Assembly: GCA_038881895.1 (NCBI GenBank)
Contig: JAVZOV010000004.1
Coordinates: forward strand, 34,521-98,520
Source: Thermoprotei archaeon
GTDB lineage: Archaea > Thermoproteota > Thermoprotei > Gearchaeales > WAQG01
Reading direction: 5' to 3'
Length of the DNA stretch: 64,000 nt
The translations under genes were made by a program, and so were the position numbers. Under the pieces are notes generated by a model. That model ran no database searches. It had not been told where the DNA came from and saw only the letters and a program-made list of their open reading frames with translations. Each line of letters begins with the position of its first letter. The stretch's first letter is position 1. Below are positions 2,463 through 63,701 of this stretch, piece by piece.

Positions 2463-3965
2463 ATGCCAGGTTTTACGGTCTATGGTAAGAACGGAATTGT
2501 TGTGTCACAAAATTATCATGCATCAATGGCTGGGATTAAAATACTTGAGAACGGAGGAAACGCATTCGATGCGGCAATTACAATAAGTTCAGTTCTTTCA
2601 GTAGTAATTCCTCACACTGGTGGATTAGGCGGTGATGGTTTTATACTCGCAATAACACCGGATAGTATTATAGGTTATAATGGTTCAGGTCCTGCTCCTT
2701 CAGGGTTCGATGAAAAGGAATACATAAACATTAAACCAATACGTGGACCACTAACCATTACAATACCAGGCTTAGTAGACTTATGGCGATGGATTTATGA
2801 CAAGTATTGCACAAAAGGTCTTGAAGAACTACTTTCACAAGCAATATCGTTAGCAGTTAACGGATTCCCAGTTAGTGATGAATTGGCGCGCGCTACGGAA
2901 GCTTCGAAAAATACTCTTGCCGCTTATCAAGGTTGGAATAGATTGTACGGAAATCTAAAATCTGGTGATTGGTTCATACAAAAAGATCTAGGTGAGGTAT
3001 TGAAAAAAATAGGTAAATTTGGACCTGAAGAATTTTACAAAGGAGAACTTGCAGGAGAATTAATTAGTGGTTTAAGAGCACAGGATGTGCCGATAGACAT
3101 TAGAGATTTGAGAGTTTATAAAGGCGAACAAGTCAGACCGTTAAGATCAGAATATAGAAATTATGACGTTTATGAATTACCACCCAATACCCAAGGCATT
3201 ACAACACTTGAAATTCTGTCTATGATAGAAGAATCTAATGTTGATAAGTTAGATTTTAACGATACACAAAGAATTGCATTGCAATTAAAAATCGCAGGAT
3301 TAGCGTATGAAGATCGCGATACGTTTTTAGGAGATCCAAGATTTTTCCAAATACCTGTCGAGAAACTTCTCTCTAAAAATTATCTAAGAAACAGAATACA
3401 AAAGAAACAAGGTAATATACTAAAAGATGCCGATACAACATTCTTTGCAGTTGCTGATAGGTTTGGTAACATGGTAGGATTCATTCAAAGTCTCTTTTAC
3501 CCATTTGGGTCAGGAATAGTAGTTAAAGGAATACCGTTTCAAAATAGAGGTGTAGGATTCGCTAAATCCCTCTCATCTCCAAATAGACCAGGTAAAGGCA
3601 GAAGACCCCTCCATACACTTTCAATACTTCTAGCAGAAAAAGGTGAACGAAAACTTATTATTGGATGTGCAGGTGGAGATTTACGACCTCAAATTCATTC
3701 TGAAATACTTGAAAATATTATTAGCTATAACATGAAAATTTCCAAAGCTGTAGACGCACCAAGGTTTATGTTAACTGAGTGGAATAAACACTTTACTGCA
3801 ATTATTGAAGGAAGGTTATCATTACCAAAAAGTAATGAGATAAAAATAGAAACATTACCATATTACAGTAGCAGTGTAGGGATAGCAAACGTAATCGAAT
3901 ATACACAAGGGATGTACGCTGCCACATCTGATCCAAGAAGTGAAGGAGTCGCTATGGCAATATAA
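2463..3965 (+). CDS. ggt: Gamma-glutamyltransferase (Ntn-hydrolase family)
   Basis: TGGLGGDGF motif and putative Thr nucleophile context DTTFFAVADRFGNMV; 500 aa. Confidence 0.8.
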   Translation: MPGFTVYGKNGIVVSQNYHASMAGIKILENGGNAFDAAITISSVLSVVIPHTGGLGGDGFILAITPDSIIGYNGSGPAPSGFDEKEYINIKPIRGPLTITIPGLVDLWRWIYDKYCTKGLEELLSQAISLAVNGFPVSDELARATEASKNTLAAYQGWNRLYGNLKSGDWFIQKDLGEVLKKIGKFGPEEFYKGELAGELISGLRAQDVPIDIRDLRVYKGEQVRPLRSEYRNYDVYELPPNTQGITTLEILSMIEESNVDKLDFNDTQRIALQLKIAGLAYEDRDTFLGDPRFFQIPVEKLLSKNYLRNRIQKKQGNILKDADTTFFAVADRFGNMVGFIQSLFYPFGSGIVVKGIPFQNRGVGFAKSLSSPNRPGKGRRPLHTLSILLAEKGERKLIIGCAGGDLRPQIHSEILENIISYNMKISKAVDAPRFMLTEWNKHFTAIIEGRLSLPKSNEIKIETLPYYSSSVGIANVIEYTQGMYAATSDPRSEGVAMAI

Positions 3966-5123
3966 TCATGTAACTTTCACCTCAATTTTTTGCAGTATTT
4001 TTCTTAGTATGTCGATGGTGTTTCTTATATCATCGTATGTTATCATGTATGGTGGTAAAAATCTAACAGTAGTTACTCCAGCTTTAAGCGATAAGATCTT
4101 TTCCTCTTGAAGTGTCTTTATGATACTTGATGGGTTTGTACGCATATCGATTCCTATCATAAATCCAATTCCTCTAATATCACGCACAATATCAAAATCT
4201 TTTAAATTAACCTTAAGTAGATTAATAAAATCCTTTCCCTTCTCTCTAACATTATTAGTTACATTATCGCTTTTTAAAACTCTTACTGATGCAGTAACAG
4301 CAGCCATAGCAAGAGGATTTCCACCGTATGTACTGCCGTGATCACCTTCATCCAGCTTACTGGCAATCCAATCTGGCATGAATACTGCACTCACTGGAAA
4401 ACCTCCGCCAATGGCCTTACCAGCAGCCATTATATCTGGTTTTGTATTAAAATGTTGATGCGCCCATATTTTTCCAGTCCTTCCAAATCCACTCTGAATT
4501 TCATCTACTATAAGAATACTACCAGTATCATCAGCAATATCCCTCAAAGCTTTCATAAAATCTGGCTGTGCGGGTATAACGCCTCCTTCACCTTGGACTG
4601 GTTCGACTATTATTCCTGCAACAGTATCGTTCACAACCTTTAATGATTCAATATTATTGAATTCAGCAAATATAACATCACTCATAAGGGGTTCGAAAGG
4701 TTCTCTATACTTTTTATTCCATGTAAGGGATAAAGCTGCAAAAGTCCTGCCGTGAAAAGAATTTTTAAAAGCAACAAATTTCTTTCTTTTTGTGACCTTT
4801 TTAGCAATTTTCACTGCCAATTCTATAGCTTCACTACCACTATTTAAAAGAAAAACATTATTAAGGTCATCAGGTTTCACGTATTCAAGTTCATTTAACA
4901 TTTCATCACGTATTGATGATGAGAAAGCTGTAGACAAAGTCATTATTTCGTTCATTTGTCTACTTAAATATTCAATAACAACTTTATTCCTATGACCAAG
5001 AAAAGCCACACCATGCCCAGTATGTAAATCAAGATATTTGACACCATTTTCATCCCATACGTACTGATCCTTACCCTTAACAATTTTAAGTCCTCTATTA
5101 CCAAAAAAACTAATTAATTTCAA
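3966..5123 (-). CDS. lysJ: Class-III aminotransferase, LysJ/ArgD type
   Basis: PLP-dependent aminotransferase fold with a lysine-containing motif ([13 protein letters not shown]); last gene of the lysWXJ unit. Confidence 0.8.
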
Positions 5124-39492: not shown

Positions 39493-40287
39493 ATGAAAAT
39501 AATACATGGAATGCTAAAATGTCCATACCTACAACAATTATCATTGGATGATAGCACATGCGTCATCACAAAAACTAAAATAGCTAAAGAGTACCTTGAA
39601 AAATTCTGTTCAAATAATTATGTAAATTGCAAATATTATGAGACCATTAAACTAAACCAAACAGAAAATACCCCAAAGAACACACAATTACGTGAACCTT
39701 TACGTGTAAGAATAATTGACAATTCACGTTCAAAAGAACTCATAAAAAAAGAATCTACAAACATACAGATAGTACCACAAAATCAATCATTAAACATTAA
39801 TATCAACAACATGCTAAATGAGCTCAATAGTGCATGGCATCAATACGAGACAAAAGTAAAAGAAATCATTGAACGTTGGAACACTGAAAAAGAAAAAATT
39901 CTTTCCAGAATATTAAACGAGCGTTCCGGGCTAAATTCAATGTTGGTAAGAGAAGAAGAATTAGAAGGACGAAAAATAATTGGCCTAATAACTGATGAAG
40001 AATACAATACTCTTAAAGCAAAAATTAATGAAGAAAAGAAAATAATAGAAAATAAAATTAAAGAACTCACTGAACATATAATATCTTTTGAAAAAGAATT
40101 AAGCTTACACAGAAAACGTTTAAATTTACCAATAAAACAGGAGGATCTTAATACGTTAAATAAAAAATTAGCTGATCTAGAAAATGCAAAAGAAAAGGGC
40201 ATGATATCTAATACAACTTACGAAAAATTAAAACAAGAAATTACTTTTCGAATAGATTTACTTAAAGAAATATACAAGATGCTTTAG
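39493..40287 (+). CDS. Hypothetical protein: N-terminal Cys-rich segment plus long C-terminal coiled coil
   Basis: CPYLQQ...C...C..NC cysteine pattern followed by a K/E-rich heptad-like region. Confidence 0.4.
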   Translation: MKIIHGMLKCPYLQQLSLDDSTCVITKTKIAKEYLEKFCSNNYVNCKYYETIKLNQTENTPKNTQLREPLRVRIIDNSRSKELIKKESTNIQIVPQNQSLNININNMLNELNSAWHQYETKVKEIIERWNTEKEKILSRILNERSGLNSMLVREEELEGRKIIGLITDEEYNTLKAKINEEKKIIENKIKELTEHIISFEKELSLHRKRLNLPIKQEDLNTLNKKLADLENAKEKGMISNTTYEKLKQEITFRIDLLKEIYKML

Positions 40288-40579
40288 TCAATGGTTTCGG
40301 ATAAATTGGCTTAAATGGATGAGTGCCATACTCTTTTTTGAAAAAACTCTGCTTAGTCGCTTAAGACCTATGGATAATGCCAGCTTCAGATGTGGTAATT
40401 TCCCAAAAGGAATTCCCAATGAAATAATCGAAAAAGAAGAGTTAAGTAGAGACGTAAGAATACACTCTTACAATTGAAAGTCTCCCTTTTAAGGGTGAGA
40501 GGAGGTAGCTTATCAGCAATTCTCAGAGTTCTAGGTTTTCTTGTCAAGCCTTTATAAAAATGAAATGATTTTTTAATAT

Positions 40580-41497
40580 TTAAACATAGTCTAACCATGA
40601 TTCGTACTCTTTAATTTTACCTCTTACTATGTCAAAGTATAATGATTGTAGTTTCTTTGTTATCGAACCTGGTTTTCCTGACCCTATTATTATTCCATCA
40701 ACATTTACTACAGGAGTTATCTCCGCAGCTGTCCCTGTAAGGAAGACCTCATCAGCCATGTAGACATCTGCTAATGTGATTTCACTTTCTGTAGCTTTAT
40801 ATCCTAAGTCAGCTGCAAGTTTCATAACTGTTTTTCTAGTAATTCCAGGAAGCACGCTGGAGTACAATGGTGGGGTAATAATCTCGTCATCACGCACTAT
40901 AAAAATATTCTCGCCAGTACCTTCAGAAATTACACCTCTATAATCAAGCATCAATGCCTCATCGAAACCTACTTCCTTTGCCTCGATCTTAGCTAACACA
41001 GAATTCAAATATTGTCCGGTCGCTTTCGCTTCTAAGGGAAGACTTTGAGGAGGTATTCGTCTCCATGTGGATGTTTTAAGTTTTATACCATTTTCCAATG
41101 CATTTTTTCCTAGATATGCACCCCATTCCCAAGCAGCGACCATAAAAGATACAGGAACATCTGTAGGATCAACTCCCAATTGTTTATATCCACGGAATAC
41201 TAATGGTCTGATATAACATTCTTTTAGTTCATTAATTCTCACAACCTCTTTAATGATATCAAGTATCTGATCACTGCTATATGAAATGTTCATTCTGTAG
41301 ATCTTTGATGAATGTAATAAACGTTTAACGTGATCTTTTCCACGAAATATGGCGGTTTTTCCAGAAACAGTTTCATATGCTCTTATACCCTCAAATACTC
41401 CAGTCCCGTAATGAAGTGCGTGCGTAAGAACATGAATTTTTGCATCGGCCCATGGAATAAACTTACCATCAAGCCAAATATATTTACTTTCCTTCAT
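40580..41497 (-). CDS. ilvE: Branched-chain amino acid aminotransferase (fold-type IV PLP enzyme)
   Basis: Class-IV aminotransferase pattern (GTGVFEGIRAY... EVFLTGTAAEITPV); the likely start is the internal ATG (MKESKYIWLDG). Confidence 0.8.
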   Translation of the reverse strand: MKESKYIWLDGKFIPWADAKIHVLTHALHYGTGVFEGIRAYETVSGKTAIFRGKDHVKRLLHSSKIYRMNISYSSDQILDIIKEVVRINELKECYIRPLVFRGYKQLGVDPTDVPVSFMVAAWEWGAYLGKNALENGIKLKTSTWRRIPPQSLPLEAKATGQYLNSVLAKIEAKEVGFDEALMLDYRGVISEGTGENIFIVRDDEIITPPLYSSVLPGITRKTVMKLAADLGYKATESEITLADVYMADEVFLTGTAAEITPVVNVDGIIIGSGKPGSITKKLQSLYFDIVRGKIKEYESWLDYV

Positions 41498-41597
41498 AAT
41501 GCTTTCACCACAATAAACGTGAAAAATCTTCTTATTAAGTTTGTTTATTAAAAAGAATAACAGAATCATGATAAAAAGACAAGAATCAGTCAACTTA

Positions 41598-52796: not shown

Positions 52797-52960
52797 AATT
52801 GACATTCTCCGCGGCTGAAGCCGGGAGATTCTCGGTTCCTCAGGCTCAAGCCTTCATCGTACCGAGTTCGGGCTGTGTCAAGGCAGCCCCTGCCATGAGC
52901 ATGTAGCCCATAGCCCGCTTAAGGATGTTCGTTGCTCCATTATAGTCTGCGTTGCATTGG
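52797..52960 (-). ncRNA. Predicted omega-RNA (reRNA) scaffold overlapping the tnpB 3' end and right end
   Basis: Inference from the TnpB family's known architecture; the same ~125-bp segment is what survives in the remnant at 9013-9137. Extent not determinable from sequence alone. Confidence 0.35.
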
Positions 52961-53922
52961 ATTCCGCAGTTTTGGCATTTGAAGAGGCCTCCGACTCGAA
53001 GCCCCCTATGCCCGCATTTATGGCACAGCTTTGAAGTGTTTCTCTCGCTTATCTTAACAACTTTGATTCCGCGCCATCTCGCCTTATACTCTATGAATTG
53101 GCTTAGCCTATGGTATGGGAATCCGTTGTTGAGCTTTCTTTTGAAAGTCCTACCTCTGCCGTTTCGTCTTATGCCCTTGAGTTTTCCAAGAATTATCATG
53201 GAGTCGTTCGCCAAAGCTTCGTTGACTATGGCTCTGCTAATCTTATGCAGGATGTCGCTAACAACTCTTCTCTCTTTACGCCCAATCTTCTTTATGGTTC
53301 TGTAGGCCCTCTTTAAAGCTAAAGACCTTCTAAGGTAGAAGTAGTGCCCCTTAACCCTTCTAAGCTCCCTCCCATAGAACTTCGGTCTCGGATTGGTTGA
53401 GTTGACTGTTGTGGCTATCCAGCGTATCCCCATATCTATAGCTAAAGTCGACTTAGGATTTCTCTCCTCGACTTCTTTTTCAACAGTTATGTGGACGAAC
53501 CACTCATTACCTTTCTTTACGATTTTTGCCTCTCTGCAAATCATGTCATCAGTTATTGGTTCATGGGTCTTTATAGGGACGTTTATTCCGCCTCTAACCC
53601 CATAAATTGGAATCTTGAGCCAATAAGGCGTCAGCTTGGTGTCCGCTCTGTACATGTCCCTTCTAAGGATTAGCGGGTATTCCTTGTTAGGCTTAACATT
53701 TCCAAGCCTCTTTAGAAGTCTGTCAGCCTGTTGCTTTGTAGCGGAATAAAGTGGAACAGACTTGTCTCCATGCAAATAGCGTTGCCAATTCTCGTATTCC
53801 CTTCTAAGAAGCTCTTCCTTGCCTTTGCGAAGTTCAAGAACCTTTGCCTTAATGGTTTTCTTAGCCTTCATGAGCGACTCGCCCATAGAAAAATTAACTG
53901 ACAAGTATTTAAACGCATTCAT
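52846..53922 (-). CDS. tnpB: TnpB (IS200/IS605 OrfB; RuvC-like RNA-guided nuclease family)
   Basis: RuvC-I LAIDMGIRW, RuvC-II Glu region, zinc finger CHKCGHRG...CQNCGIQC, RuvC-III NADYNGATNI; GC content clearly above flanking genes. An internal Met (MKAKK...) may be the true start. Confidence 0.85.
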   Translation of the reverse strand: MNAFKYLSVNFSMGESLMKAKKTIKAKVLELRKGKEELLRREYENWQRYLHGDKSVPLYSATKQQADRLLKRLGNVKPNKEYPLILRRDMYRADTKLTPYWLKIPIYGVRGGINVPIKTHEPITDDMICREAKIVKKGNEWFVHITVEKEVEERNPKSTLAIDMGIRWIATTVNSTNPRPKFYGRELRRVKGHYFYLRRSLALKRAYRTIKKIGRKERRVVSDILHKISRAIVNEALANDSMIILGKLKGIRRNGRGRTFKRKLNNGFPYHRLSQFIEYKARWRGIKVVKISERNTSKLCHKCGHRGLRVGGLFKCQNCGIQCNADYNGATNILKRAMGYMLMAGAALTQPELGTMKA

Positions 53923-54185
53923 CCCATGATTAAAATCATGGGCTTTCTGCTACGTCTCTGTAAAATTACGTAAGAGAGCGTCCCTTTACGAAGGGTTTAA
54001 CGCAGAAGAGAGAGATTAAGTATAGATATGGAATCCATACTTAGTCCAGAACCATTAATAGGTTTTAAGACATCTCATTTAAAATCTCGTCCATTCATTC
54101 CAGGACTAAAGTTCTAAGTTTTTTGGACGTCCAATAGTATAAATAAATTTTTATTAAAGAAAAGAAACATAAAAATGTGGTACTT

Positions 54186-57745: not shown

Positions 57746-59050
57746 TTGATTAAAATGGCTGGAGCATTAGGTGGTAGGGTACCTGAAGAGATAGAAAGCG
57801 CAATGTTAAAAATAGATATTGGTTTTAAGACAATGGACGATATTGATTTTGAAGATAAAGTAGTGTTGCTTCGTACCGACATGAATTTACCGCTAAATCC
57901 TAAGACTAGCATGCCGATTGATCTTACTCGCATGAAGGTACTTGCAGAAACAACATTAAAAGAACTATTAGTTAGAGGAGCAAGAGTTGCTATACTCACA
58001 CACCAAGGTAGGCCTGGTGATCCTGAATTCACAACAACAGATTTACATGCAAAATTATTAGCAAAAATGTTAAAAACACGAGTACACTATGTACCAGACC
58101 TCTATGGTCCACTGGCAATAGAGGCAATGAAAAAATTAAGAAAAGGCGAATATAGAATAGTAATGCTTGAGAACGTAAGGACCGACCCCGATGAAATGAT
58201 CAAAAGACCCCCCGAAGAGCAAGCTAAAACTAAACAAGTTCAAACATTATCAATGTTAGCGGACATATATGTTAATGATGCTTTTGCAGCATGCCACAGA
58301 AGTAACGTATCATTAACAGGATATCCAGTAGTGATGCCAGCTGTAGGAGGTAGAGTACTCGAATGGGAAATGAGAGCACTTACTTGGGTACTTCGCTATA
58401 GTGAAGCACCTAGAATTTTTATTTTAGGTGGTGCAAAATTAGAGGATGCAACAGCCATAACTGACCATGTCCTCTCTACTAAGAAAGCCGATTTTGTTGC
58501 TATGGCAGGTCTAATCGCCAACCTTTTCTTAGCAGCAAAAGGAGTTGATCTAGGAGAAATAAATATGAAATTCTTAGAACGTAAAGGAGGATTACTTCTC
58601 ATGGAAGATGTGAAAAAAGTACTCGAAAAATACAAAGACTCCATAATACTACCTACAGATGTAGCTGTAGAAACTGGTAATGGAATACGAGCCGATATTC
58701 CTATAGGATTACTTCCAATCAACTCCCCTATAAAAGATATTGGCATGTTAACCGCTGAAACTCTTGAACAAATAATTTTCAAAAGCAGAACTGTAGTAAT
58801 TAGCGGTCCAGCCGGAGTCTATGAGGAACCCGCGTTTATTTATGCTACAAAAAGAATATTCAAAGCAGCAGTCGAATCAAATGCTTTCTCCGTAGTGGGA
58901 GGAGGGCACACAGTCGCTGCATTGAACATGATGGGATTAGCAAGCAAATTTAGTCATGTCAGCACTGGTGGTGGAGCATTGATAGAAATGTTAATGGAAA
59001 GACCACTACCCGGTGTAGAAGCTTTAAAATTAGGCGCAAAAAATATTTAA
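57746..59050 (+). CDS. pgk: Phosphoglycerate kinase
   Basis: PGK N-terminal pattern (...DKVVLLRTDMNLP...) and C-terminal GGGA motif region; conserved gap-pgk arrangement; true start may be an internal Met. Confidence 0.8.
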   Translation: MIKMAGALGGRVPEEIESAMLKIDIGFKTMDDIDFEDKVVLLRTDMNLPLNPKTSMPIDLTRMKVLAETTLKELLVRGARVAILTHQGRPGDPEFTTTDLHAKLLAKMLKTRVHYVPDLYGPLAIEAMKKLRKGEYRIVMLENVRTDPDEMIKRPPEEQAKTKQVQTLSMLADIYVNDAFAACHRSNVSLTGYPVVMPAVGGRVLEWEMRALTWVLRYSEAPRIFILGGAKLEDATAITDHVLSTKKADFVAMAGLIANLFLAAKGVDLGEINMKFLERKGGLLLMEDVKKVLEKYKDSIILPTDVAVETGNGIRADIPIGLLPINSPIKDIGMLTAETLEQIIFKSRTVVISGPAGVYEEPAFIYATKRIFKAAVESNAFSVVGGGHTVAALNMMGLASKFSHVSTGGGALIEMLMERPLPGVEALKLGAKNI

Positions 59051-59090
59051 TTTTTATTAATTTTAAGAATATTATAAAAACTATTAATAA

Positions 59091-60068
59091 TTATCTATTT
59101 AATTGTTTAGACCACTGTAATAATGTTTTCACTCGTCTTACTGGATGCGGGTGTGTGCTGAGAAATTCTGCAAGCCTTTCAGAAAATGTTAACTCTCTCC
59201 TAGCTAAGTCATAAACTATTACCTCATCTCCACTAATCGTCATTGGTTTCGCAGCTTCAGGATCCGAAATAAGCAGTGCTCTAAACTTTGATGAGGAACT
59301 TATCGCATCTGGATTTCTCTCTCTTATTTCTGACGTAGAGTTACTTATTTTAACTAAAGCTACTGCTAACTTCATTGCACCACCATCGACAACTGTTGCA
59401 CCGTTATAATCTGCGTACGTCTCACGTTGTCTACTAAAAGCAAGTAACAGTAAGTTTAGTATAAAGTACACTATAAATCCTATGATGCCAATCAACACTA
59501 AAATAAAACCAGAATTTCCATTATTCCTTCTGCCACCACTAATTGATGAAAACCATCCTGAATAATACAAGGCTTGTGAAATCGCATACACTATAGCTGG
59601 AAGAACACTAAGCAAAGTTATAACTTGCACATCATGATGCCTTAAATGTCCAACCTCATGACCTATCACAGCTTCAAGTTCATCAGGTTTTAGCACTTTT
59701 AAAATACCCTTTGTCACTGCTATTCTTGGACCCGTAAGCCAACTACCATAAGCGAATGCATTAGGCACTGGTATATCAGCTATCATAAGTTTTGGAATCT
59801 TCCTTAACTTACTTCTCTGTGCAACTCTCTCGACTACATCATAAAGCCACTTATATGACTCATCAGCAGGTTTAACCTTATAACTCCATTCTATTACATA
59901 AGGACCAATGAGCCATTCAATAAAAACCCACAGTGCTACTAGTATTGCTAAGGCTAACGGTGTCAATCCACCTATTAACGCTAGAATTGGCATCAGAAAG
60001 AGTGCTGTAACACCTACGATAACTAAGAACGTGATAGTCATAATGATCCACAGTCTCCATGGCATCAT
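59091..60068 (-). CDS. htpX: M48-family zinc metalloprotease (HtpX-like)
   Basis: HEVGH zinc motif (IGHEVGHLRHHD) with flanking TM helices. Confidence 0.75.
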   Translation of the reverse strand: MMPWRLWIIMTITFLVIVGVTALFLMPILALIGGLTPLALAILVALWVFIEWLIGPYVIEWSYKVKPADESYKWLYDVVERVAQRSKLRKIPKLMIADIPVPNAFAYGSWLTGPRIAVTKGILKVLKPDELEAVIGHEVGHLRHHDVQVITLLSVLPAIVYAISQALYYSGWFSSISGGRRNNGNSGFILVLIGIIGFIVYFILNLLLLAFSRQRETYADYNGATVVDGGAMKLAVALVKISNSTSEIRERNPDAISSSSKFRALLISDPEAAKPMTISGDEVIVYDLARRELTFSERLAEFLSTHPHPVRRVKTLLQWSKQLNR

Positions 60069-60252
60069 TTATACTCACCTAGCATATAGTAAAACAAAAC
60101 TTTCTTATAAATCTAGTTCACACACAGTCTATCTTTTTCTCTACTTTTTAAGAGAATTATTCAGAATCACTCACAAATCACCATTACCTGCCGTGGTCAA
60201 CAGTTTTGGAATAGATAGGTTTAAATATTTGTTCAACTCTATTAACTCTTTG

Positions 60253-60438
60253 ATGGAAGAAGAACTGCTTAGACCAAAGGATGTTGCAAAGATATTCAAC
60301 ATCTCAGTTAAAACGCTCTGGAAGTGGCAGAGGAAAGGCATTATTAGAGCAGTTAAACTTCCAACTGGCAAGCTCCGCTACCCGAGGAGCGAAGTTGAGA
60401 GGCTATGGAAGCAGTTAAAAGCTACAGGATCCCAATAG
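60253..60438 (+). CDS. Small MerR/excisionase-type HTH protein (61 aa), resembling only the DNA-binding N-terminus of an IS607-type TnpA
   Basis: MEEELLRPKDVAKIFNISVKTLWKWQRKGIIRAVKLPTGKLRYPRSEVERLW; overlaps the tnpB start. The listed 176-aa ORF is a spurious upstream extension overlapping htpX. Confidence 0.55.
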   Translation: MEEELLRPKDVAKIFNISVKTLWKWQRKGIIRAVKLPTGKLRYPRSEVERLWKQLKATGSQ

Positions 60439-61592
60439 AGGCTCCAAAAGATTTAATCGAAGAATACTTCAAAGCTAAGCGGAAGGCTTTAGACGCAATA
60501 TTCTCACACGTTAAAATTTCCAAGAAGGCTCACCTTAACTTGAAAGCTGAGGATAGGAGAGAGCTTAGAGATGAACTGCTGAAAGACTGGAGGTTTTCAA
60601 AGCATTACGTTGATTCAGCAATGAACTCCGTTATCGGATTGGTTAAGGGCTGGATAACACTATATAACAAGGGGAAAGCTGAAGGTAAGCCTGAGATAAC
60701 TAAAAAAACCGTTTACATTAAGAGCACGCTCTTCAGCTTTAGAAATGGTATACTGAGGATAAGCGTAGAGCCTAGTAAGCGGTATCTTGAGGTTGACTTA
60801 AGAAAGTGTTCGTGGATTCCGAGAGACTTTGATAAAGTCGGTGGACTACTTATGACTGAAAGTGAGCTGATAATTACAGTTAAGAAGAGGGTTGAGCCCA
60901 AAGCTGATAAGTGGGCTTCCTTCGATGTGAACTTAACGAACGTGACGGCGTTCATAGGTGGCGAGATCAAGCGCTATGACTTAAGAGAGCTCTACCACAT
61001 TCACAGAGTTTATGAGGTTAAAAGACAGAGGATACAAAAGTTATCTAAGATTAAGCCTCTAACCTCAAAGAGACTATTAGAGAAGTACTCTAAGCGTGAG
61101 GAGAATAGGGCTAAAGACTTCATGCATAAGTTAACCACGCAGGTTGCGAGGGAGCTCAAGGAGAAGGACTGCGGAGCGATACTTGAAAACCTGAAAGGTA
61201 TAAAGGGGCGAATTCTTAATGGCTCAAGGAAAAATAACAGAAAGCTCTCAAAGTGGAACGCAAGAACATTCCAACTCATGCTCGAATACAAGCTGAAATG
61301 GCTTAACCTACCAACAAAATACGTTAGCCCAGCCAACTCATCTAAAACTTGCCCAGCCTGCTCAGGAAGCATGGCTTCCTATCTGGGCAGGATAATGAAG
61401 TGCGAAGAATGCGGGTTAACGATGGATAGGGATGTTGTAGCGGTGTTGAACCTTCAGATGCGGGGAGAAGGGTTCACCCAGAGAGCCCTCAATGAAATAA
61501 TTGAGGGGGAAGGGTTAAGTAGGAATAAAAGCAACAATTCACTATGCATTCCTACTCAACTCAGAACCCATTACATAAAGCTAACCGTTTGA
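60405..61592 (+). CDS. tnpB: TnpB (second, distinct family member; RuvC-like nuclease with zinc finger)
   Basis: RuvC-I ASFDVNLTNV, RuvC-II Glu (AILENLKG), zinc finger CPACSGS...CEECG, RuvC-III DRDVVAVLNL; GC-rich relative to flanks. Confidence 0.85.
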   Translation: MEAVKSYRIPIEAPKDLIEEYFKAKRKALDAIFSHVKISKKAHLNLKAEDRRELRDELLKDWRFSKHYVDSAMNSVIGLVKGWITLYNKGKAEGKPEITKKTVYIKSTLFSFRNGILRISVEPSKRYLEVDLRKCSWIPRDFDKVGGLLMTESELIITVKKRVEPKADKWASFDVNLTNVTAFIGGEIKRYDLRELYHIHRVYEVKRQRIQKLSKIKPLTSKRLLEKYSKREENRAKDFMHKLTTQVARELKEKDCGAILENLKGIKGRILNGSRKNNRKLSKWNARTFQLMLEYKLKWLNLPTKYVSPANSSKTCPACSGSMASYLGRIMKCEECGLTMDRDVVAVLNLQMRGEGFTQRALNEIIEGEGLSRNKSNNSLCIPTQLRTHYIKLTV

Positions 61593-61724
61593 AAACTGCT
61601 GAAGAACCCTTAAAGAGTGAATGTTGTCCGTTGTCAGATAATATGGAATCAGTATCGTTACATTAAAAAGTTAAACCATAATAAATCAAAAACACACCAT
61701 CGGTTTTTAATAAAATACTTTGTG

Positions 61725-63701
61725 TTATTTGGATATTATTTGACCGGTATCTTTGTGTATTTTATATCCGGATAAACGTTTTTGAAGGGCATCAGCAAAT
61801 TCTTGCGATTTTAATACGTTGACAAATTTCTTTACTGAATCTTTTTCTAAGCGATCTATTGGTATTAGAAAATCATAAAATTCTTCTCCAATAGGTATAA
61901 AATCTAAATCATAAGCGTCAGCAACACTCTTGATTGCAACACCTACATCAGCTCGGCCTTGAGCAATAGCAGCCGCAACACCAGAATGTGTTTTTGCCTC
62001 AGTATAATACCCGCGTATCATGCTTATTAGTTCTTGAAAACTAATATTTTTTGTAAATGCTAATTCTCTTAATTTCATATCTATTAATGCGCGTGTGCCA
62101 GAACCTTTATTCCTATTTATAAATCTTATATTGGGTTTTAATAAATCTTCGAAACTTTTTATATTTAACGGATTACCTTTCTCAACGATAAATCCTTGCA
62201 GTCGTACATATCCTCTAATTAACACAGCTTTACCCCTTAATCCATATGTATCCATGAATGGTATATTGTACTCATTCGTCTGTTCATCAAATAAATGTGT
62301 GCCTGCAATATCAGCCTCTCCTCTTTTTACTGCAAGCCAGCCACCTACAGACCCAATGTTTATAACTTTTATGTATTCAAAGTCGCCCAGCTCAGTAATT
62401 AAATCTACACCTGGACAGTGGCTCCCTATGATTATGAGATCGGCTGGCCTAAAATATCGTGAGATTAATTTTACTTCCACACTCTCATTTTCCTCTAGAA
62501 ATTCATGAGACTCGGGTATCTCTATAAACCCGTCTGCAAATGCTAAAACAGTAGCTGAACCTGAACTAGCAAGCAATGGGTATGCTTTATAACGATCCTG
62601 AACTTGGACTATATTTACTGGCAGATACTCTCTCTTACCTTTACCGGTTTGAACTTTAAAAGCCATTTCTGCTTGGATTTTTGCTTCGCTCTGTTTTGGT
62701 GAAAGTCCAATAATCTTAGCAAGTATAGGTCGAACAAAGACTAGAAATGCTACCATTGAAGATAGAGGAAATCCAGGCAATCCAAATAATAATTTATTAT
62801 TAACAACAGCAGCTATTGTTGGTTTTCCAGGCTTAATCTTGAGACCGTGAACTATTAAACCTGGTTTACCTAAATTATTGAAAACCCTATATATAGTGTC
62901 TCTAATACCAGCTGATGTACCACCCGAAGTAATTACTACATCATAGTTCTCGTATGCTCTTGAAATAACATCCTCAATTAGCTTAGGATCATCCGGTAAT
63001 ACACCTAGATAACTTGGTTGTGCGCCCATTTCAGCAACCATGCTGCTTAACGAGAAACCATTAACATCGTATACTTTGGCTGGCCCCAATTTGGAACCCG
63101 GCATCACAATTTCGTCGCCAGTAGAGATAATAGCGATACGTGGTTTCACATACACCCTGACCATGTGTATGCCTAAGCCTGCTAATACTGCTATTTCTCT
63201 TGCGTTAAGTAGTGTACCTTTTCTCAACGCTCTTTCTCCAATCCTAATATCGGAGCCAGTTTGTGCAACGTTCTCACCTGGATGAACAGATTTATAAATA
63301 AGAACTCTTTTTTCATTAATTTTTTTGGTATGTTCAACCATAACTACAGCATCAGCACCTCTAGGTAAAGGAGCGCCAGTATCTATCTCTACAGCCTCAT
63401 TAAGATTTACCTCAACACCTGGTATTTTTCCAACAATTGAAGTACCTACAATTTTTAACTCAACAGGCTTATCTTCATCGGCTTCAAAAGTACTACGAGA
63501 ATCTACAGCATAACCATCGACCTCTGAACGATCAAAAGGAGGTAAATCAATTGTTGCATAAACATTTTCTGCTAATACACGTCCTAGTGCGCGTTCTAAT
63601 GGTATTATTTCTACTCCAAGGGGTTTAAGCCCGCCAAGAGCATTTTCAACAGCTTGGATCGCTTCTTCAACAGTTAAAAGCTTATGAAATATTATTGCCA
63701 T
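61725..63701 (-). CDS. moeA: Molybdopterin molybdotransferase MoeA fused to a C-terminal PBP-like domain
   Basis: MoeA N-terminal and MPT-binding domains, plus a ~250-aa C-terminal domain homologous to the C-terminus of the ModE-like protein at 13514-14593. Confidence 0.75.
   Translation of the reverse strand: MAIIFHKLLTVEEAIQAVENALGGLKPLGVEIIPLERALGRVLAENVYATIDLPPFDRSEVDGYAVDSRSTFEADEDKPVELKIVGTSIVGKIPGVEVNLNEAVEIDTGAPLPRGADAVVMVEHTKKINEKRVLIYKSVHPGENVAQTGSDIRIGERALRKGTLLNAREIAVLAGLGIHMVRVYVKPRIAIISTGDEIVMPGSKLGPAKVYDVNGFSLSSMVAEMGAQPSYLGVLPDDPKLIEDVISRAYENYDVVITSGGTSAGIRDTIYRVFNNLGKPGLIVHGLKIKPGKPTIAAVVNNKLLFGLPGFPLSSMVAFLVFVRPILAKIIGLSPKQSEAKIQAEMAFKVQTGKGKREYLPVNIVQVQDRYKAYPLLASSGSATVLAFADGFIEIPESHEFLEENESVEVKLISRYFRPADLIIIGSHCPGVDLITELGDFEYIKVINIGSVGGWLAVKRGEADIAGTHLFDEQTNEYNIPFMDTYGLRGKAVLIRGYVRLQGFIVEKGNPLNIKSFEDLLKPNIRFINRNKGSGTRALIDMKLRELAFTKNISFQELISMIRGYYTEAKTHSGVAAAIAQGRADVGVAIKSVADAYDLDFIPIGEEFYDFLIPIDRLEKDSVKKFVNVLKSQEFADALQKRLSGYKIHKDTGQIISK

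What the first reader, a model, noticed from the sequence alone, without database searches (positions are those of the whole stretch)
60253..61660. Second tnpB preceded only by a 61-aa MerR/excisionase-like HTH gene instead of a full TnpA recombinase
The upstream ORF has only the DNA-binding N-terminal module typical of IS607-type serine recombinases, and overlaps the tnpB start, suggesting translational coupling. An intact TnpB retained with a truncated or absent transposase may mean domestication or a mini-element mobilised in trans. The tnpB 3' end (~61465-61480, gagaagggttcaccc) is complementary to sequence just downstream of the stop (61598-61612), a possible long-range omega-RNA pairing.
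Basis: partly seen in the sequence, partly recalled or inferred. Interest (0 to 1): 0.5.

Follow-up and report, generated by a model that had tools for sequence, protein, structure and literature searches.

The report
Transposase-less archaeal IS607 element with HTH
The second tnpB sits in a 1.38-kb archaeal IS607-type insertion sequence that has lost the cutting domain of its transposase but keeps the DNA-binding part as a conserved 61-residue gene, most likely a regulator; this is a modest new variant, not a new kind of system.

Summary
The two overlapping ORFs are real: a 61-aa MerR-like HTH (60253-60438) and an intact TnpB (60405-61592).

- **Element.** Sixty-one related loci from archaeal MAGs of at least eight lineages define a 1,380-bp element, 60190-61569. 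It has no recombinase remnant, no inverted ends and no target duplication.
- **Family.** Its left end (GCCGTnGTCAnCAGTTT, then a TATA box) matches that of autonomous archaeal IS607 elements: ISSis5, an Acidianus virus copy and pFS01. In those, a full serine transposase overlaps tnpB in the same way.
- **The HTH is not a recent truncation.** It belongs to a stand-alone family of 123 clusters, all 35-93 aa, under purifying selection (dN/dS about 0.09).
- **It is also dispensable.** Five Brockarchaeota copies share a dead HTH but keep a selected TnpB. A sister clade has the same ends with a divergent RHH-like gene instead.
GGGTTC (61470-75) pairs with the element's last bases, GAACCC (61564-69), closing a covariation-supported omega-RNA scaffold. 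The proposed partner lies in unconserved flank.

Best reading: a non-autonomous IS607 derivative, moved in trans, whose HTH regulates the element. The regulatory role and the trans mobilisation are inferred, not shown.

The parts
60190..61569 (+). Whole mobile element, 1,380 bp: left end, HTH gene, tnpB, omega-RNA scaffold and right end. The boundary is uncertain by 1-3 nt because the dinucleotide CC occurs at both junctions.
   Evidence: Similarity to 61 loci from other archaeal genomes starts at 60187-60201 and stops at 61569-61574. Flanks differ in every copy. Full copies elsewhere measure 1,355-1,398 bp.
60190..60227 (+). Conserved left-end block GCCGTGGTCAACAGTTTTGGAATAGATAGGTTTAAATA. It holds the candidate crossover dinucleotide CC (60191-60192) and an archaeal TATA box, TTTAAATA (60220-60227), about 26 nt upstream of the HTH start. 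That spacing implies a leaderless or near-leaderless transcript.
   Evidence: Conserved in all HTH-clade copies. It is also shared with the autonomous IS607 elements ISSis5 (GCCGTCGTCAACAGTTTC...GTTTATATA), ATSV and pFS01. Its role as a promoter is inferred from the consensus and spacing only.
60233..60248 (+). Two direct repeats, TCAACTC (60233-39) and TTAACTC (60242-48), 9 bp apart, between the TATA box and the ATG. Candidate operator for the HTH protein; tentative.
   Evidence: The motif is not over-represented in the window as a whole, yet 3 of its 16 plus-strand matches fall in the element's ends. Repeats of 9-10 nt period but different sequence occur at the same place in L041 and L028. 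Pooled over 12 copies, shuffles give P about 0.008, though most single copies are not significant. This was a post-hoc motif choice.
60253..60438 (+). 61-aa stand-alone MerR-like winged-HTH gene, corresponding to the DNA-binding domain of IS607 TnpA.
   Evidence: Pfam HTH_17, MerR and MerR_1 hits. There are 123 homologue clusters, all 35-93 aa, at 63-92% identity. dN/dS is 0.09. It is 35-39% identical to the N-termini of bona fide IS607 TnpAs. The AF2 model has pLDDT 88, and its best structural matches are BldC, then transposon and phage excisionases.
60405..61592 (+). tnpB, 395 aa, RNA-guided nuclease with an intact active site. In other copies the gene ends at a TAA 10 nt before the right end (381-384 aa). 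Here that codon is CAA (61557-59), so the ORF runs 11 codons on, across the right end and into flanking DNA.
   Evidence: NCBIfam guided_TnpB scores above its cutoff. Alignment to ISDra2 TnpB places D174, E261 and D343 on D191, E278 and D361, and two CxxC motifs are present. ORF lengths in other copies come; the position of their stop relative to the right end is.
61449..61569 (+). Predicted omega-RNA scaffold overlapping the 3' end of tnpB. It has a closing helix GGGTTC 61470-75 with GAACCC 61564-69, a hairpin at 61486-61509, and a terminal hairpin 61512-61526 with 61548-61562. The 5' limit is uncertain.
   Evidence: RNAalifold on 24 copies. In the named structure 97.1% of cells pair, against 60% or less when partners are slid. 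The terminal hairpin carries compensatory changes: UA to CG in 8 sequences, AU to CG in 2. The same architecture is seen in the RHH clade and in ISSis5. No Rfam family matches. Expression was not tested.
61570..61589 (+). Predicted guide segment (ATTACATAAAGCTAACCGTT), the flank immediately after the right end. The length is assumed from known TnpB systems.
   Evidence: Conservation stops abruptly after GAACCC in all copies and the following bases are unrelated between copies. This is the defining layout of omega-RNA guides as described for IS607 and IS605 TnpB (PMC10690162).

Best explanation
The locus is one copy of a 1.38-kb non-autonomous insertion sequence of the archaeal ISSis5-like branch of the IS607 family. 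An ancestral element lost the serine-recombinase catalytic domain of TnpA. It kept the N-terminal winged-HTH as a separate 61-aa gene that still overlaps tnpB.

The element carries a TATA promoter in its left end, the HTH gene, an active-looking TnpB, and an omega-RNA scaffold that ends exactly at the right end, so the flanking bases serve as guide.

Shown in silico: the boundaries, the family relationship, the intact TnpB active site, the conserved RNA structure, purifying selection on the HTH, and dispensability of the HTH.

Inferred:
1. Copies are excised and integrated in trans by a full-length IS607 TnpA that recognises the shared ends, crossing over at the CC dinucleotide present at both junctions.
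2. TnpB with its omega-RNA cuts emptied donor sites (putative TAM ending in GCC) to restore the element by recombination, as shown for other IS607 and IS605 elements.
3. The HTH protein binds subterminal left-end DNA around the promoter. There it represses HTH-tnpB-omega-RNA transcription and/or competes with full-length TnpA. This would be the same role as DNA-binding-only transposase derivatives in other ISs, and as the Arc repressor of IS605 elements.
For: **Boundaries and mobility.**
- 61 loci in Brockarchaeota, Bathyarchaeia, Nitrososphaeria, Jordarchaeia, Archaeoglobales, Methanomethylicaceae, Baldrarchaeota and Desulfurococcaceae MAGs share the element, with sharp ends and unrelated flanks.
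- Single MAGs hold several diverged copies. Twelve or more TnpB variants of 85-90% identity map to three large contigs labelled Thermoprotei archaeon; whether they are one genome was not checked.
- A decayed relic lies at 40384-40470 in this window.

**IS607 affiliation.**
- The closest annotated TnpBs (32-34% identity) lie in ISSis5, pFS01 and ATSV elements, where a full TnpA overlaps tnpB.
- The left-end terminus is nearly identical to theirs.
- CC occurs at both junctions, and there are no terminal inverted repeats or target duplication. This matches published IS607 hallmarks (PMC6188088; PMC10690162).

**HTH is functional but accessory.**
- Homologues are 35-93 aa only.
- dN/dS is 0.09.
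- Among the best 150 hits of an exhaustive search of 1.84 billion representatives, no full-length TnpA has an HTH more than 47% identical to this one.
- Five Brockarchaeota copies share a 16-nt deletion and stop codons in the HTH, yet keep an intact TnpB with dN/dS 0.15-0.27.
- A sister clade with the same end sequences carries a divergently transcribed RHH-like gene at the same position.

**Regulator analogy.**
- The fold is BldC/excisionase-like.
- IS1535 TnpA, through its DNA-binding domain, binds repeats 20-60 bp inside the left end (PMC6188088). In this element that stretch is the TATA-to-ATG segment.
- Arc represses IS605 promoters (preprint 10.64898/2026.09.24.754181).

**TnpB and omega-RNA:**
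Against: - No full-length TnpA partner was found. There is none in the window or in about 390 kb around relatives, and whole genomes could not be scanned. Trans mobilisation is therefore unproven.
- Copies within one genome are 8-18% diverged. Recent transposition is not demonstrated, and some copies could be separate acquisitions.
- No binding site for the HTH is established. The direct repeats are significant only when pooled and were chosen post hoc. There is no clear co-variation between the HTH recognition helix and left-end sequence.
- The TAM and crossover dinucleotide are inferred from conservation. No empty site was available; look-ups of the neighbouring genes failed.
- TnpB identity to proven IS607 TnpBs is low (32-34%).
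- The window copy carries a mutation that removes the usual stop codon and breaks one hairpin pair.
Confidence: 0.6

Rival explanations
1. Toxin-antitoxin-like pair. TnpB is a toxic nuclease and the small DNA-binding protein is its antitoxin and autorepressor, as was proposed for archaeal RHH/MazE-TnpB loci.
For: A small DNA-binding gene sits immediately upstream of and overlapping a nuclease gene. The PNAS 2023 survey proposed a toxin-antitoxin role for archaeal RHH/MazE-TnpB pairs (PMC10691335). A sister clade here carries an RHH-like gene.
Against: Five Brockarchaeota copies have a dead HTH but an intact, selected TnpB, which an essential antitoxin would not allow unless it were supplied in trans. 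The pair sits inside a bounded, multi-copy transposon with an omega-RNA. The published RHH/MazE clade has a rearranged RuvC-III site and is non-mobile, whereas the triad here is canonical.
Confidence: 0.1
2. Split transposase. The HTH protein is the end-recognition subunit and recruits a separately encoded catalytic subunit or host recombinase, so the element depends on its own HTH to move.
For: The HTH is homologous to the TnpA domain that binds IS607 ends (PMC6188088). It is strongly conserved. No close full-length TnpA was seen among the best 150 hits of the exhaustive search.
Against: The Brockarchaeota lineage produced at least five copies that all inherit the same HTH-killing deletion. 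RHH-clade elements have the same end sequences without any HTH. No stand-alone resolvase catalytic gene was seen near any copy.
Confidence: 0.1
3. Neutral remnant. The small ORF is just what is left of a degraded tnpA and has no function.
For: It corresponds to a fragment of tnpA. Some lineages have lost it.
Against: dN/dS is 0.09 with saturated synonymous change. There are 123 clusters of the same 61-65-aa architecture across several archaeal lineages. The start, TATA box and overlap are conserved. No catalytic-domain debris remains.
Confidence: 0.05
4. Domesticated host regulator or RNA-guided factor. The pair has been exapted, TldR-like, and is no longer a transposon.
For: There is no transposase in cis. 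The HTH is intact while tnpB decays at one locus seen in 20 metagenome contigs.
Against: The RuvC triad is intact. Genomic neighbourhoods vary, several diverged copies occur in single MAGs, the ends are sharp, and both genes decay roughly in proportion to their lengths. There is no conserved host-gene partner.
Confidence: 0.05
5. Programmed -1 frameshift in the 34-nt overlap (at UUA AAA G) fuses the HTH to TnpB, giving an HTH-TnpB protein, as in IS1/IS3 OrfAB.
For: tnpB lies in the -1 frame relative to the HTH ORF, and an A-rich run (GTTAAAAGC, 60414-60422) lies in the overlap.
Against: The heptamer is weak, because only the A-site tRNA can re-pair. The A-run is explained by the TnpB N-terminus MEAVKS. 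Other HTH variants overlap by 11-20 nt, some in a different frame, and bona fide tnpA-tnpB pairs overlap similarly. tnpB has its own ATG and a GAGG motif.
Confidence: 0.03

Closest known systems
Autonomous archaeal IS607-family elements: ISSis5 on Sulfolobus islandicus pYN01, the copy in Acidianus tailed spindle virus, and the copy on Methanocaldococcus pFS01
   Same: The first gene overlaps tnpB. The left end is GCCGTnGTnAnCAGTTT followed by a TATA box. The right end finishes in AACCC(C), with an omega-RNA closing helix GGGGTT/AACCCC. There are no inverted repeats. The HTH aligns with the TnpA N-terminus.
   Different: Those elements encode a 194-210-aa TnpA with the YARVSS catalytic serine motif. 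Here only the first 55 or so residues' worth exists, as its own gene. TnpB is only 32-34% identical and about 50 aa shorter. The element is about 0.55 kb smaller.
tnpB-only non-autonomous elements (IS1341-type), thought to be mobilised in trans
   Same: There is no transposase in cis, copies are multiple, and tnpB plus omega-RNA is retained.
   Different: This family keeps a selected DNA-binding gene derived from the transposase, and its ends are of IS607 type, not the IS200/IS605 hairpin type. The window's first tnpB (52846-53922) is the ordinary hairpin type.
Arc (ribbon-helix-helix) repressor of IS605-family transposons (bioRxiv 10.64898/2026.09.24.754181)
   Same: A small transposon-encoded DNA-binding protein sits beside tnpB, next to the element's promoter. 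The sister clade of this element carries a divergent RHH-like gene in exactly that place.
   Different: The fold differs (winged HTH, not RHH). The orientation is co-directional and overlapping, not divergent. The origin is a transposase domain. Repression is not tested here.
BldC and the Xis/RDF excisionases (minimal MerR-like winged-HTH proteins)
   Same: These are the best sequence and structure matches: BldC at E 6e-5 and TM 0.73-0.86, the GIsul2 excisionase, Pukovnik Xis and RdfS. They have the same size and lack an effector domain. BldC binds direct repeats head to tail.
   Different: No integrase or developmental regulon is present in the context. Identity is only 22-33%.
RHH/MazE-TnpB, and the 'additional HTH protein' noted with Ser-3 TnpBs (Altae-Tran et al., PNAS 2023, PMC10691335)
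   Same: A small DNA-binding gene upstream of an archaeal tnpB. An HTH cargo gene with serine-recombinase-branch TnpBs was mentioned in passing.
   Different: The RHH/MazE clade is described as non-mobile with a rearranged RuvC-III site. Here the triad is canonical and the element is bounded and multi-copy. The paper does not describe the HTH as a TnpA-derived replacement for the transposase.

Membership tests
IS607 family insertion sequence | Encodes a serine-recombinase TnpA: an N-terminal MerR-like HTH plus a PF00239 catalytic domain with the catalytic Ser | tested here: not met
   Only the HTH part is present. No Resolvase hit appears in the ORF. tblastn with three IS607 TnpAs finds no catalytic-domain match in the element, the window, or the 61 related loci.
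IS607 family insertion sequence | tnpB immediately downstream of the first gene and overlapping it | tested here: met
   The overlap here is 34 nt. Overlaps of 20-23 nt occur in ISSis5, pFS01 and ATSV.
IS607 family insertion sequence | No terminal inverted repeats, no subterminal palindromes at the left end, no target-site duplication | tested here: met
   Flanks of 12 complete copies show no duplication. The repeat scan finds no inverted repeat between the two ends and no left-end palindrome. Published hallmark: PMC6188088, PMC10690162.
IS607 family insertion sequence | The same GG/CC dinucleotide at both element-host junctions (crossover core) | tested here: inconclusive
   CC is present at 60191-92 and at 61568-69 in all copies. 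No empty site or excision product was available to show that it is the crossover point.
IS607 family insertion sequence | End sequences homologous to those of autonomous family members | tested here: met
   The left-end terminus and TATA spacing align with ISSis5, ATSV and pFS01. Right ends finish in AACCC(C) in all.
TnpB / OMEGA RNA-guided nuclease | RuvC D-E-D triad and a CxxC...CxxC zinc finger | tested here: met
   D174, E261 and D343 align to ISDra2 D191, E278 and D361. CxxC motifs lie at residues 316 and 333. NCBIfam guided_TnpB scores 112, above its cutoff of 100.
TnpB / OMEGA RNA-guided nuclease | Structured omega-RNA scaffold overlapping the tnpB 3' end and ending at the right end, followed by a copy-specific guide | tested here: met
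   Three helices, 97% of cells paired, compensatory changes in the terminal hairpin, and conservation ending at GAACCC. This is in silico only; expression and processing were not tested.
TnpB / OMEGA RNA-guided nuclease | Defined TAM next to the left end | tested here: inconclusive
   G precedes CC in all junctions of the three clades that were read off by eye, and a pyrimidine precedes that in most HTH-clade junctions. Whether these bases are flank (a TAM of YGCC) or element cannot be told without an empty site.
MerR-like winged HTH (Pfam HTH_17; BldC/Xis class) | HTH_17/MerR domain above the curated cutoff, and the matching fold | tested here: met
   HTH_17 scores 45.9 bits against a cutoff of 27, and MerR 28.6 against 28.2. 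The AF2 model has pLDDT 88 with a strand-helix-helix-strand-helix layout. Foldseek's top hits are BldC at TM 0.73-0.86.
Canonical MerR-family regulator | C-terminal coiled-coil dimerisation and effector-binding domain | tested here: not met
   The protein is 61 aa and ends after one helix that follows the wing. Matches to SoxR and CueR cover only their N-terminal 55-60 residues.
Excisionase / recombination directionality factor | Works with a cognate integrase encoded nearby | tested here: not met
   No integrase lies in the element or next to it; the neighbours are htpX and moeA. The TIGR01764 hit, 24.4 bits, is below its cutoff of 28.8.
Domesticated nuclease-dead TnpB (TldR-type) | Inactivated RuvC site, single-copy, fixed host-gene context | tested here: not met
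   The triad is intact. The element is multi-copy with variable contexts.
IS200/IS605 (Y1 transposase) element | Y1 TnpA and/or subterminal palindromic hairpins at both ends | tested here: not met
   There is no palindrome at the left end. The right-end hairpin changes sequence while keeping its pairing, as an RNA element does. The nearest annotated relatives are IS607, not IS605. A dedicated Y1 search was not run.

The most novel reading that the evidence does not exclude
A transposase reduced to its DNA-binding domain has been kept for a long time, across several archaeal lineages, as a dedicated governor of a TnpB/omega-RNA element. It would repress the element's promoter and/or block TnpA filament assembly at the ends. 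It has been swapped for an unrelated RHH protein in a sister lineage with the same ends. That would make a small DNA-binding regulator a recurrent third component of TnpB transposons, and would show that such elements can persist and cross lineages without ever carrying their own transposase.
Probability: 0.35. Interest if true: 0.55.

Novelty: new variant of a known kind. Interest (0 to 1): 0.42.

Why it matters
- It gives a clean natural example of how IS607-type TnpB elements are organised once the transposase is gone: precise ends, a promoter, an omega-RNA and a putative TAM for a thermophilic archaeal TnpB clade.
- It points to a testable regulator. The HTH is small, well defined and conserved. 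Its role can be assayed directly by end binding, promoter repression and inhibition of TnpA-driven excision, alongside the recently reported Arc repressor of IS605.
- The HTH-to-RHH swap at the same position argues that what is selected is a DNA-binding regulatory function, not recombination.
- For annotation, these 61-65-aa genes are currently labelled 'putative resolvase' or 'helix-turn-helix protein', and the TnpBs 'transposase'. Both labels mislead.

Tried and rejected
- **Rfam.** A scan of 59000-62500 at a permissive threshold found no known omega-RNA family.
- **Exact-protein look-ups failed.** The window's TnpB, MoeA and HtpX, and the closest homologues P0001, P0264 and P0265, are not on record. 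The source genome, an orthologous empty site and the closest multi-copy contigs could therefore not be examined.
- **Full-length TnpA with a near-identical HTH.** An exhaustive HMMER search of 1.84 billion representatives was run, and only its best 150 hits were inspected. The best N-terminal-HTH proteins of about 200 aa (P0185, P0210, P0213; 46-47% identity) lack the catalytic serine. Two of the three were looked up, and both sit in non-IS neighbourhoods, so they were rejected as partners.
- **Viral contigs.** No close relative was found.
- **Left-end/right-end motif co-variation.** TYAACTC in both ends looked promising in the window and in L053, but fails in L041, L014 and L020.
- **Co-variation between HTH recognition-helix variants and left-end sequence.** Nothing clear emerged.
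- **The left-end-like 10-mer and AGAACC in the right flank.** This could be a second end or a relic, but it is present only in this copy and remains unresolved.
- **HTH retained after TnpB decay (domestication).** Loss patterns fit the 6:1 difference in gene length, so no claim is made.
- **Junction similarity to ISSis5 tnpA-tnpB,** as a way to trace the deletion breakpoints: none found.
Full report
**1. What is in the sequence**

The window is AT-rich (35% G+C). Around the finding it carries archaeal-type housekeeping genes: GAPDH, PGK, an HtpX-like M48 peptidase at 59091-60068 (-), and MoeA at 61725-63701 (-).

Between htpX and moeA lie two co-directional ORFs:

| ORF | Size | Best family hits |
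|---|---|---|
| 60253-60438 | 61 aa | Pfam HTH_17 (45.9 bits, cutoff 27), MerR, MerR_1; NCBIfam BldC family (sub-threshold); positions 1-49 of 187 of the IS607-transposase model (33.8 bits, cutoff 110) |
| 60405-61592 | 395 aa | NCBIfam guided_TnpB above its cutoff; Pfam Cas12f1-like_TNB and OrfB_IS605 |

- They overlap by 34 nt, and GAGG precedes the tnpB ATG.
- The 176-aa ORF that the ORF listing reports from 59908 is an artefact of an open frame. Homologues start at MEEELL, and a TATA box lies at 60220-60227.
- The other tnpB in the window (52846-53922, minus strand) is only 28% identical. It belongs to a different element type.

**2. Boundaries: a 1,380-bp element**

A scan of one genome per species found 61 loci that encode relatives (29-85% protein identity in the best-matching segment), nearly all of them archaeal. 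They come from Brockarchaeota, Bathyarchaeia, Nitrososphaeria, Jordarchaeia, Archaeoglobales, Methanomethylicaceae, Baldrarchaeota and Desulfurococcaceae MAGs, and several MAGs hold more than one copy.

- Nucleotide similarity to the window starts at 60187-60201 and stops at 61569-61574 in copy after copy.
- The left end begins GCCGTnGTCAGCAGTTTC...TAGGTTTAAATA (window 60190-60227).
- The right end finishes ...CTACTTAACTCAGAACCC (window 61569).
- Beyond those ends the flanks are unrelated.
- Complete copies measure 1,355-1,398 bp.
- There is no target duplication and no inverted repeat between the ends.
- tblastn with three genuine IS607 transposases finds nothing beyond the HTH in the element, the window, or about 390 kb of related loci.

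So the boundaries hold no recombinase pseudogene.

**3. Family: IS607, ISSis5-like branch**

The closest annotated TnpBs in plasmid and virus collections (32-34% identity) are three elements. Two of them are annotated as IS607-family:
- ISSis5 on S. islandicus pYN01,
- a copy on Methanocaldococcus pFS01,
- a copy in Acidianus tailed spindle virus, whose two ORFs are labelled only "transposase".

In each, a 194-210-aa TnpA overlaps the start of tnpB by about 20 nt.

| Element | Left end |
|---|---|
| ISSis5 | GCCGTCGTCAACAGTTTC...GTTTATATA |
| ATSV | GCCGTTGTTAGCAGTTTC...GTTTATAT |
| Window | GCCGTGGTCAACAGTTTT...GTTTAAATA |

- Their right ends finish in AAACCCC, with an upstream GGGGTT.
- The 61-aa protein aligns over its whole length with the N-terminal domain of these TnpAs at 35-39% identity. 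They then continue into the YARVSS catalytic motif, which is absent here.
- Published hallmarks of the family are met, apart from the catalytic domain itself: no inverted repeats, no duplication, and a GG/CC dinucleotide at both junctions (PMC4058570; PMC6188088; PMC10690162).
- By analogy with the CboIStron (TAM TGGG, core GG), the invariant G, and the usual pyrimidine, before CC at the left junction may be target preference and TAM (YGCC). Without an empty site this stays open.

**4. The HTH is an old, selected, stand-alone gene, but it is dispensable**

*Evidence that it is a real gene*
- A search of 5.8 billion proteins gave 123 clusters at 63-92% identity. Every one is 35-93 aa, and they come from many archaeal lineages.
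- An exhaustive HMMER search of 1.84 billion representatives was inspected down to its best 150 hits. No full-length transposase with a closely related HTH appeared. The best candidates of about 200 aa (46-47% identity) have lost the catalytic serine. Two of the three were looked up, and both lie in non-IS contexts.
- Among ten intact copies, the non-overlapping 48 codons give dN 0.12, dS 1.29 and dN/dS 0.09.
- From the TnpB side, nearly every locus of this clade that has upstream sequence carries the ORF, usually with the same 34-nt overlap. From the HTH side, both contexts examined have tnpB next door.

*Evidence that it is accessory*
- Five copies in one Brockarchaeota MAG are 82-92% identical to each other. 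They all share a 16-nt deletion and premature stops in the HTH. Their TnpBs remain intact (381-384 aa) with dN/dS 0.15-0.27. The element therefore multiplied, and TnpB stayed under selection, after the HTH died.
- A sister TnpB clade (59-66% identity) has the same left terminus (GCCTTG.GAAGCAGT) and right terminus (CTGAACCCC). Instead of the HTH it carries a divergently transcribed 46-77-aa RHH-like gene; its Pfam RHH hits are below the cutoffs.
- Two further HTH variants, 45-55% identical, occupy the same slot with overlaps of 11-20 nt.

What is conserved at this position, then, is a small DNA-binding protein, not a recombinase part.

**5. Structure and analogues of the HTH**

- AlphaFold2 with 44 homologues gives a confident model (pLDDT 88): a short strand, two helices, a two-strand wing and a C-terminal helix.
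- The best structural matches are BldC (TM 0.73-0.86), the N-terminal part of SoxR, the GIsul2 transposon excisionase, Pukovnik Xis and RdfS. CvkR, the MerR-type repressor of type V-K CAST, appears lower in the list. BldC is also the best sequence match in the PDB.
- In IS1535, TnpA binds direct repeats 20-60 bp inside the left end through its DNA-binding domain (PMC6188088). In this element that interval is the TATA-to-ATG stretch.
- That stretch holds two 9-bp-spaced repeats, TCAACTC and TTAACTC (60233-48). Repeats of similar period but different sequence occur in some other copies. The signal is modest and was found post hoc.

**6. TnpB and the omega-RNA**

- Alignment to ISDra2 TnpB puts D174, E261 and D343 on the catalytic D191, E278 and D361. 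Both CxxC pairs are present.
- In other copies TnpB ends at a TAA 10 nt before the right end. In the window that codon is CAA (61557-59), so the ORF reads across the right end into the flank and adds 11 residues.
- The last 120 nt or so are far more conserved than the protein requires.
- RNAalifold on 24 copies predicts three helices:
  - a closing helix, GGGTTC 61470-75 with GAACCC 61564-69;
  - a hairpin at 61486-61509;
  - a long terminal hairpin, 61512-26 with 61548-62.
- In that structure 97% of cells pair, against 60% or less when partners are slid. The terminal hairpin has compensatory changes. The closing helix is invariant within this clade, and a similar GGGGTT/AACCCC complementarity is visible in the RHH-clade and ISSis5 sequences.
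- The T-to-C change that removes the stop codon also breaks one pair of the terminal hairpin.
- Conservation ends exactly at 61569, so 61570 onward is the predicted guide.

The proposed partner, 61598-61612, is unconserved flank. The 8-nt match there has about a 1% chance of arising in shuffles, and it is part of an unexplained left-end-like motif unique to this copy.

**7. How it most likely works**

*Shown in silico*
- A bounded IS607-type element without a catalytic transposase.
- An active-looking TnpB.
- A conserved scaffold RNA that abuts a copy-specific guide.
- A selected but dispensable HTH gene behind a TATA box in the left end.

*Inferred*
- Movement depends on a full-length IS607 TnpA supplied in trans. 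The ends are those of autonomous ISSis5-like elements, and internal-deletion derivatives that keep both ends also exist (L050, L054).
- TnpB with its omega-RNA re-cuts emptied donor sites, as shown for IS605 and IS607 (PMC10690162).
- The HTH binds the subterminal left end. There it represses the HTH-tnpB-omega-RNA transcript and/or competes with TnpA. This parallels the Arc repressor and DNA-binding-only transposase derivatives in other IS families; the latter comparison rests on my own knowledge.

*Rivals ranked lower* (reasons are given under each rival)
- toxin-antitoxin pair,
- split transposase,
- neutral remnant,
- domestication,
- frameshift fusion.

**8. Novelty**

- The PNAS 2023 census mentions rare "additional HTH domain proteins" with serine-recombinase-branch TnpBs, and an archaeal RHH/MazE-TnpB group.
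- A 2026 preprint shows Arc repressing IS605 promoters.
- In four full-text searches and the papers read here, I found no description of a conserved HTH-only TnpA derivative that replaces the transposase in a widespread archaeal IS607 lineage. The literature search covered open-access text only.

This is a new variant of a known kind, of moderate interest.

**9. Limits**

- No whole genome, empty site or expression data could be reached.
- The trans-acting transposase, the TAM, the crossover point, the HTH binding site and RNA expression are all untested.
- Many relatives come from MAGs, where frameshifts may be assembly errors.

Noticed in passing
window 40384-40470 (+), intergenic between ORFs 39493-40287 and 40580-41593: Decayed relic of the 3' end and omega-RNA region of a related element (CTTCAGATGTGG...CCCAATGAAATAATCGA...GAAGAGTTAAGTAGAG). 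The stems are broken and no tnpB remains. It shows that this genome has held at least one more copy.
   Followed up: partly
window 61590-61611, right flank of the element: AAACTGCTGA-AGAA-CC mirrors the left-end half-site (CC-GTGG-TCA[A/G]CAGTTT) and includes the left-end consensus 10-mer TCAGCAGTTT on the minus strand, 24 nt after the right end. It is found in none of 27 other copies and has roughly a 1% chance expectation. It could be a relic of an inverted older copy, a pseudo-recombination site, or coincidence.
   Followed up: partly
window 52846-53922 (-), with upstream palindrome at about 53923-53942: The first tnpB (358 aa) is only 28% identical to the second and has a perfect subterminal palindrome, CCCATGATTTTAATCATGGG, just upstream. 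This is an ordinary IS200/IS605 (IS1341-type) tnpB-only element with neither tnpA nor HTH.
   Followed up: partly
L023, L025, L027, L029, L030, L031, L033, L043, L046 (for example L023 3789-3950, minus strand): A sister TnpB clade (59-66% identity) has the same left and right termini but carries a divergently transcribed 46-77-aa RHH-like gene in place of the HTH. About 60-70 nt of TATA-containing spacer separates it from tnpB.
   Followed up: partly
L002, L003, L004, L005, L007 (Brockarchaeota DRTY-1.bins.18): Five copies, 82-92% identical to each other, all inherit a 16-nt deletion and in-frame stops in the HTH gene. Every TnpB is intact and under purifying selection (dN/dS 0.15-0.27).
   Followed up: yes
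L071-L080 (HTH at 3001-3186 in each): A single insertion between an IscS/NifU operon and an MFS transporter recurs in 20 metagenome contigs. The HTH protein is identical in all, but tnpB is broken into different fragments in different samples. The look-up selects for identical HTH, so this is not evidence of selection.
   Followed up: partly
P0185 (L066 779-1402), P0213 (L067 4001-4600), P0210: Proteins of about 190-207 aa have this type of HTH followed by a resolvase-like domain that has lost the catalytic serine (YVRVLQ, YVRHI, YIRIP instead of YARVSS). P0213 sits in a conserved neighbourhood without tnpB and may be a domesticated dead IS607 transposase.
   Followed up: partly
window 61557-61559: The usual TAA stop of this TnpB clade is CAA here. 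The ORF gains 11 residues encoded by the last bases of the right end plus the guide region. The same T-to-C change breaks an A-U pair of the terminal omega-RNA hairpin.
   Followed up: yes
window 60183-60187 and 61570-61574: ATTAC occurs in both immediate flanks, at different offsets from the ends. No other copy shows a flank repeat, so it is probably chance rather than a target duplication.
   Followed up: yes
L050 and L054 (HTH 3826-4017, then tnpB residues 289-391 only): An internal-deletion derivative keeps the left end, the HTH, the tnpB 3' end with its omega-RNA region, and the right end, but has lost about 290 codons of tnpB. It is a still smaller, MITE-like form of the element, seen in two related Bathyarchaeia MAGs.
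   Followed up: no
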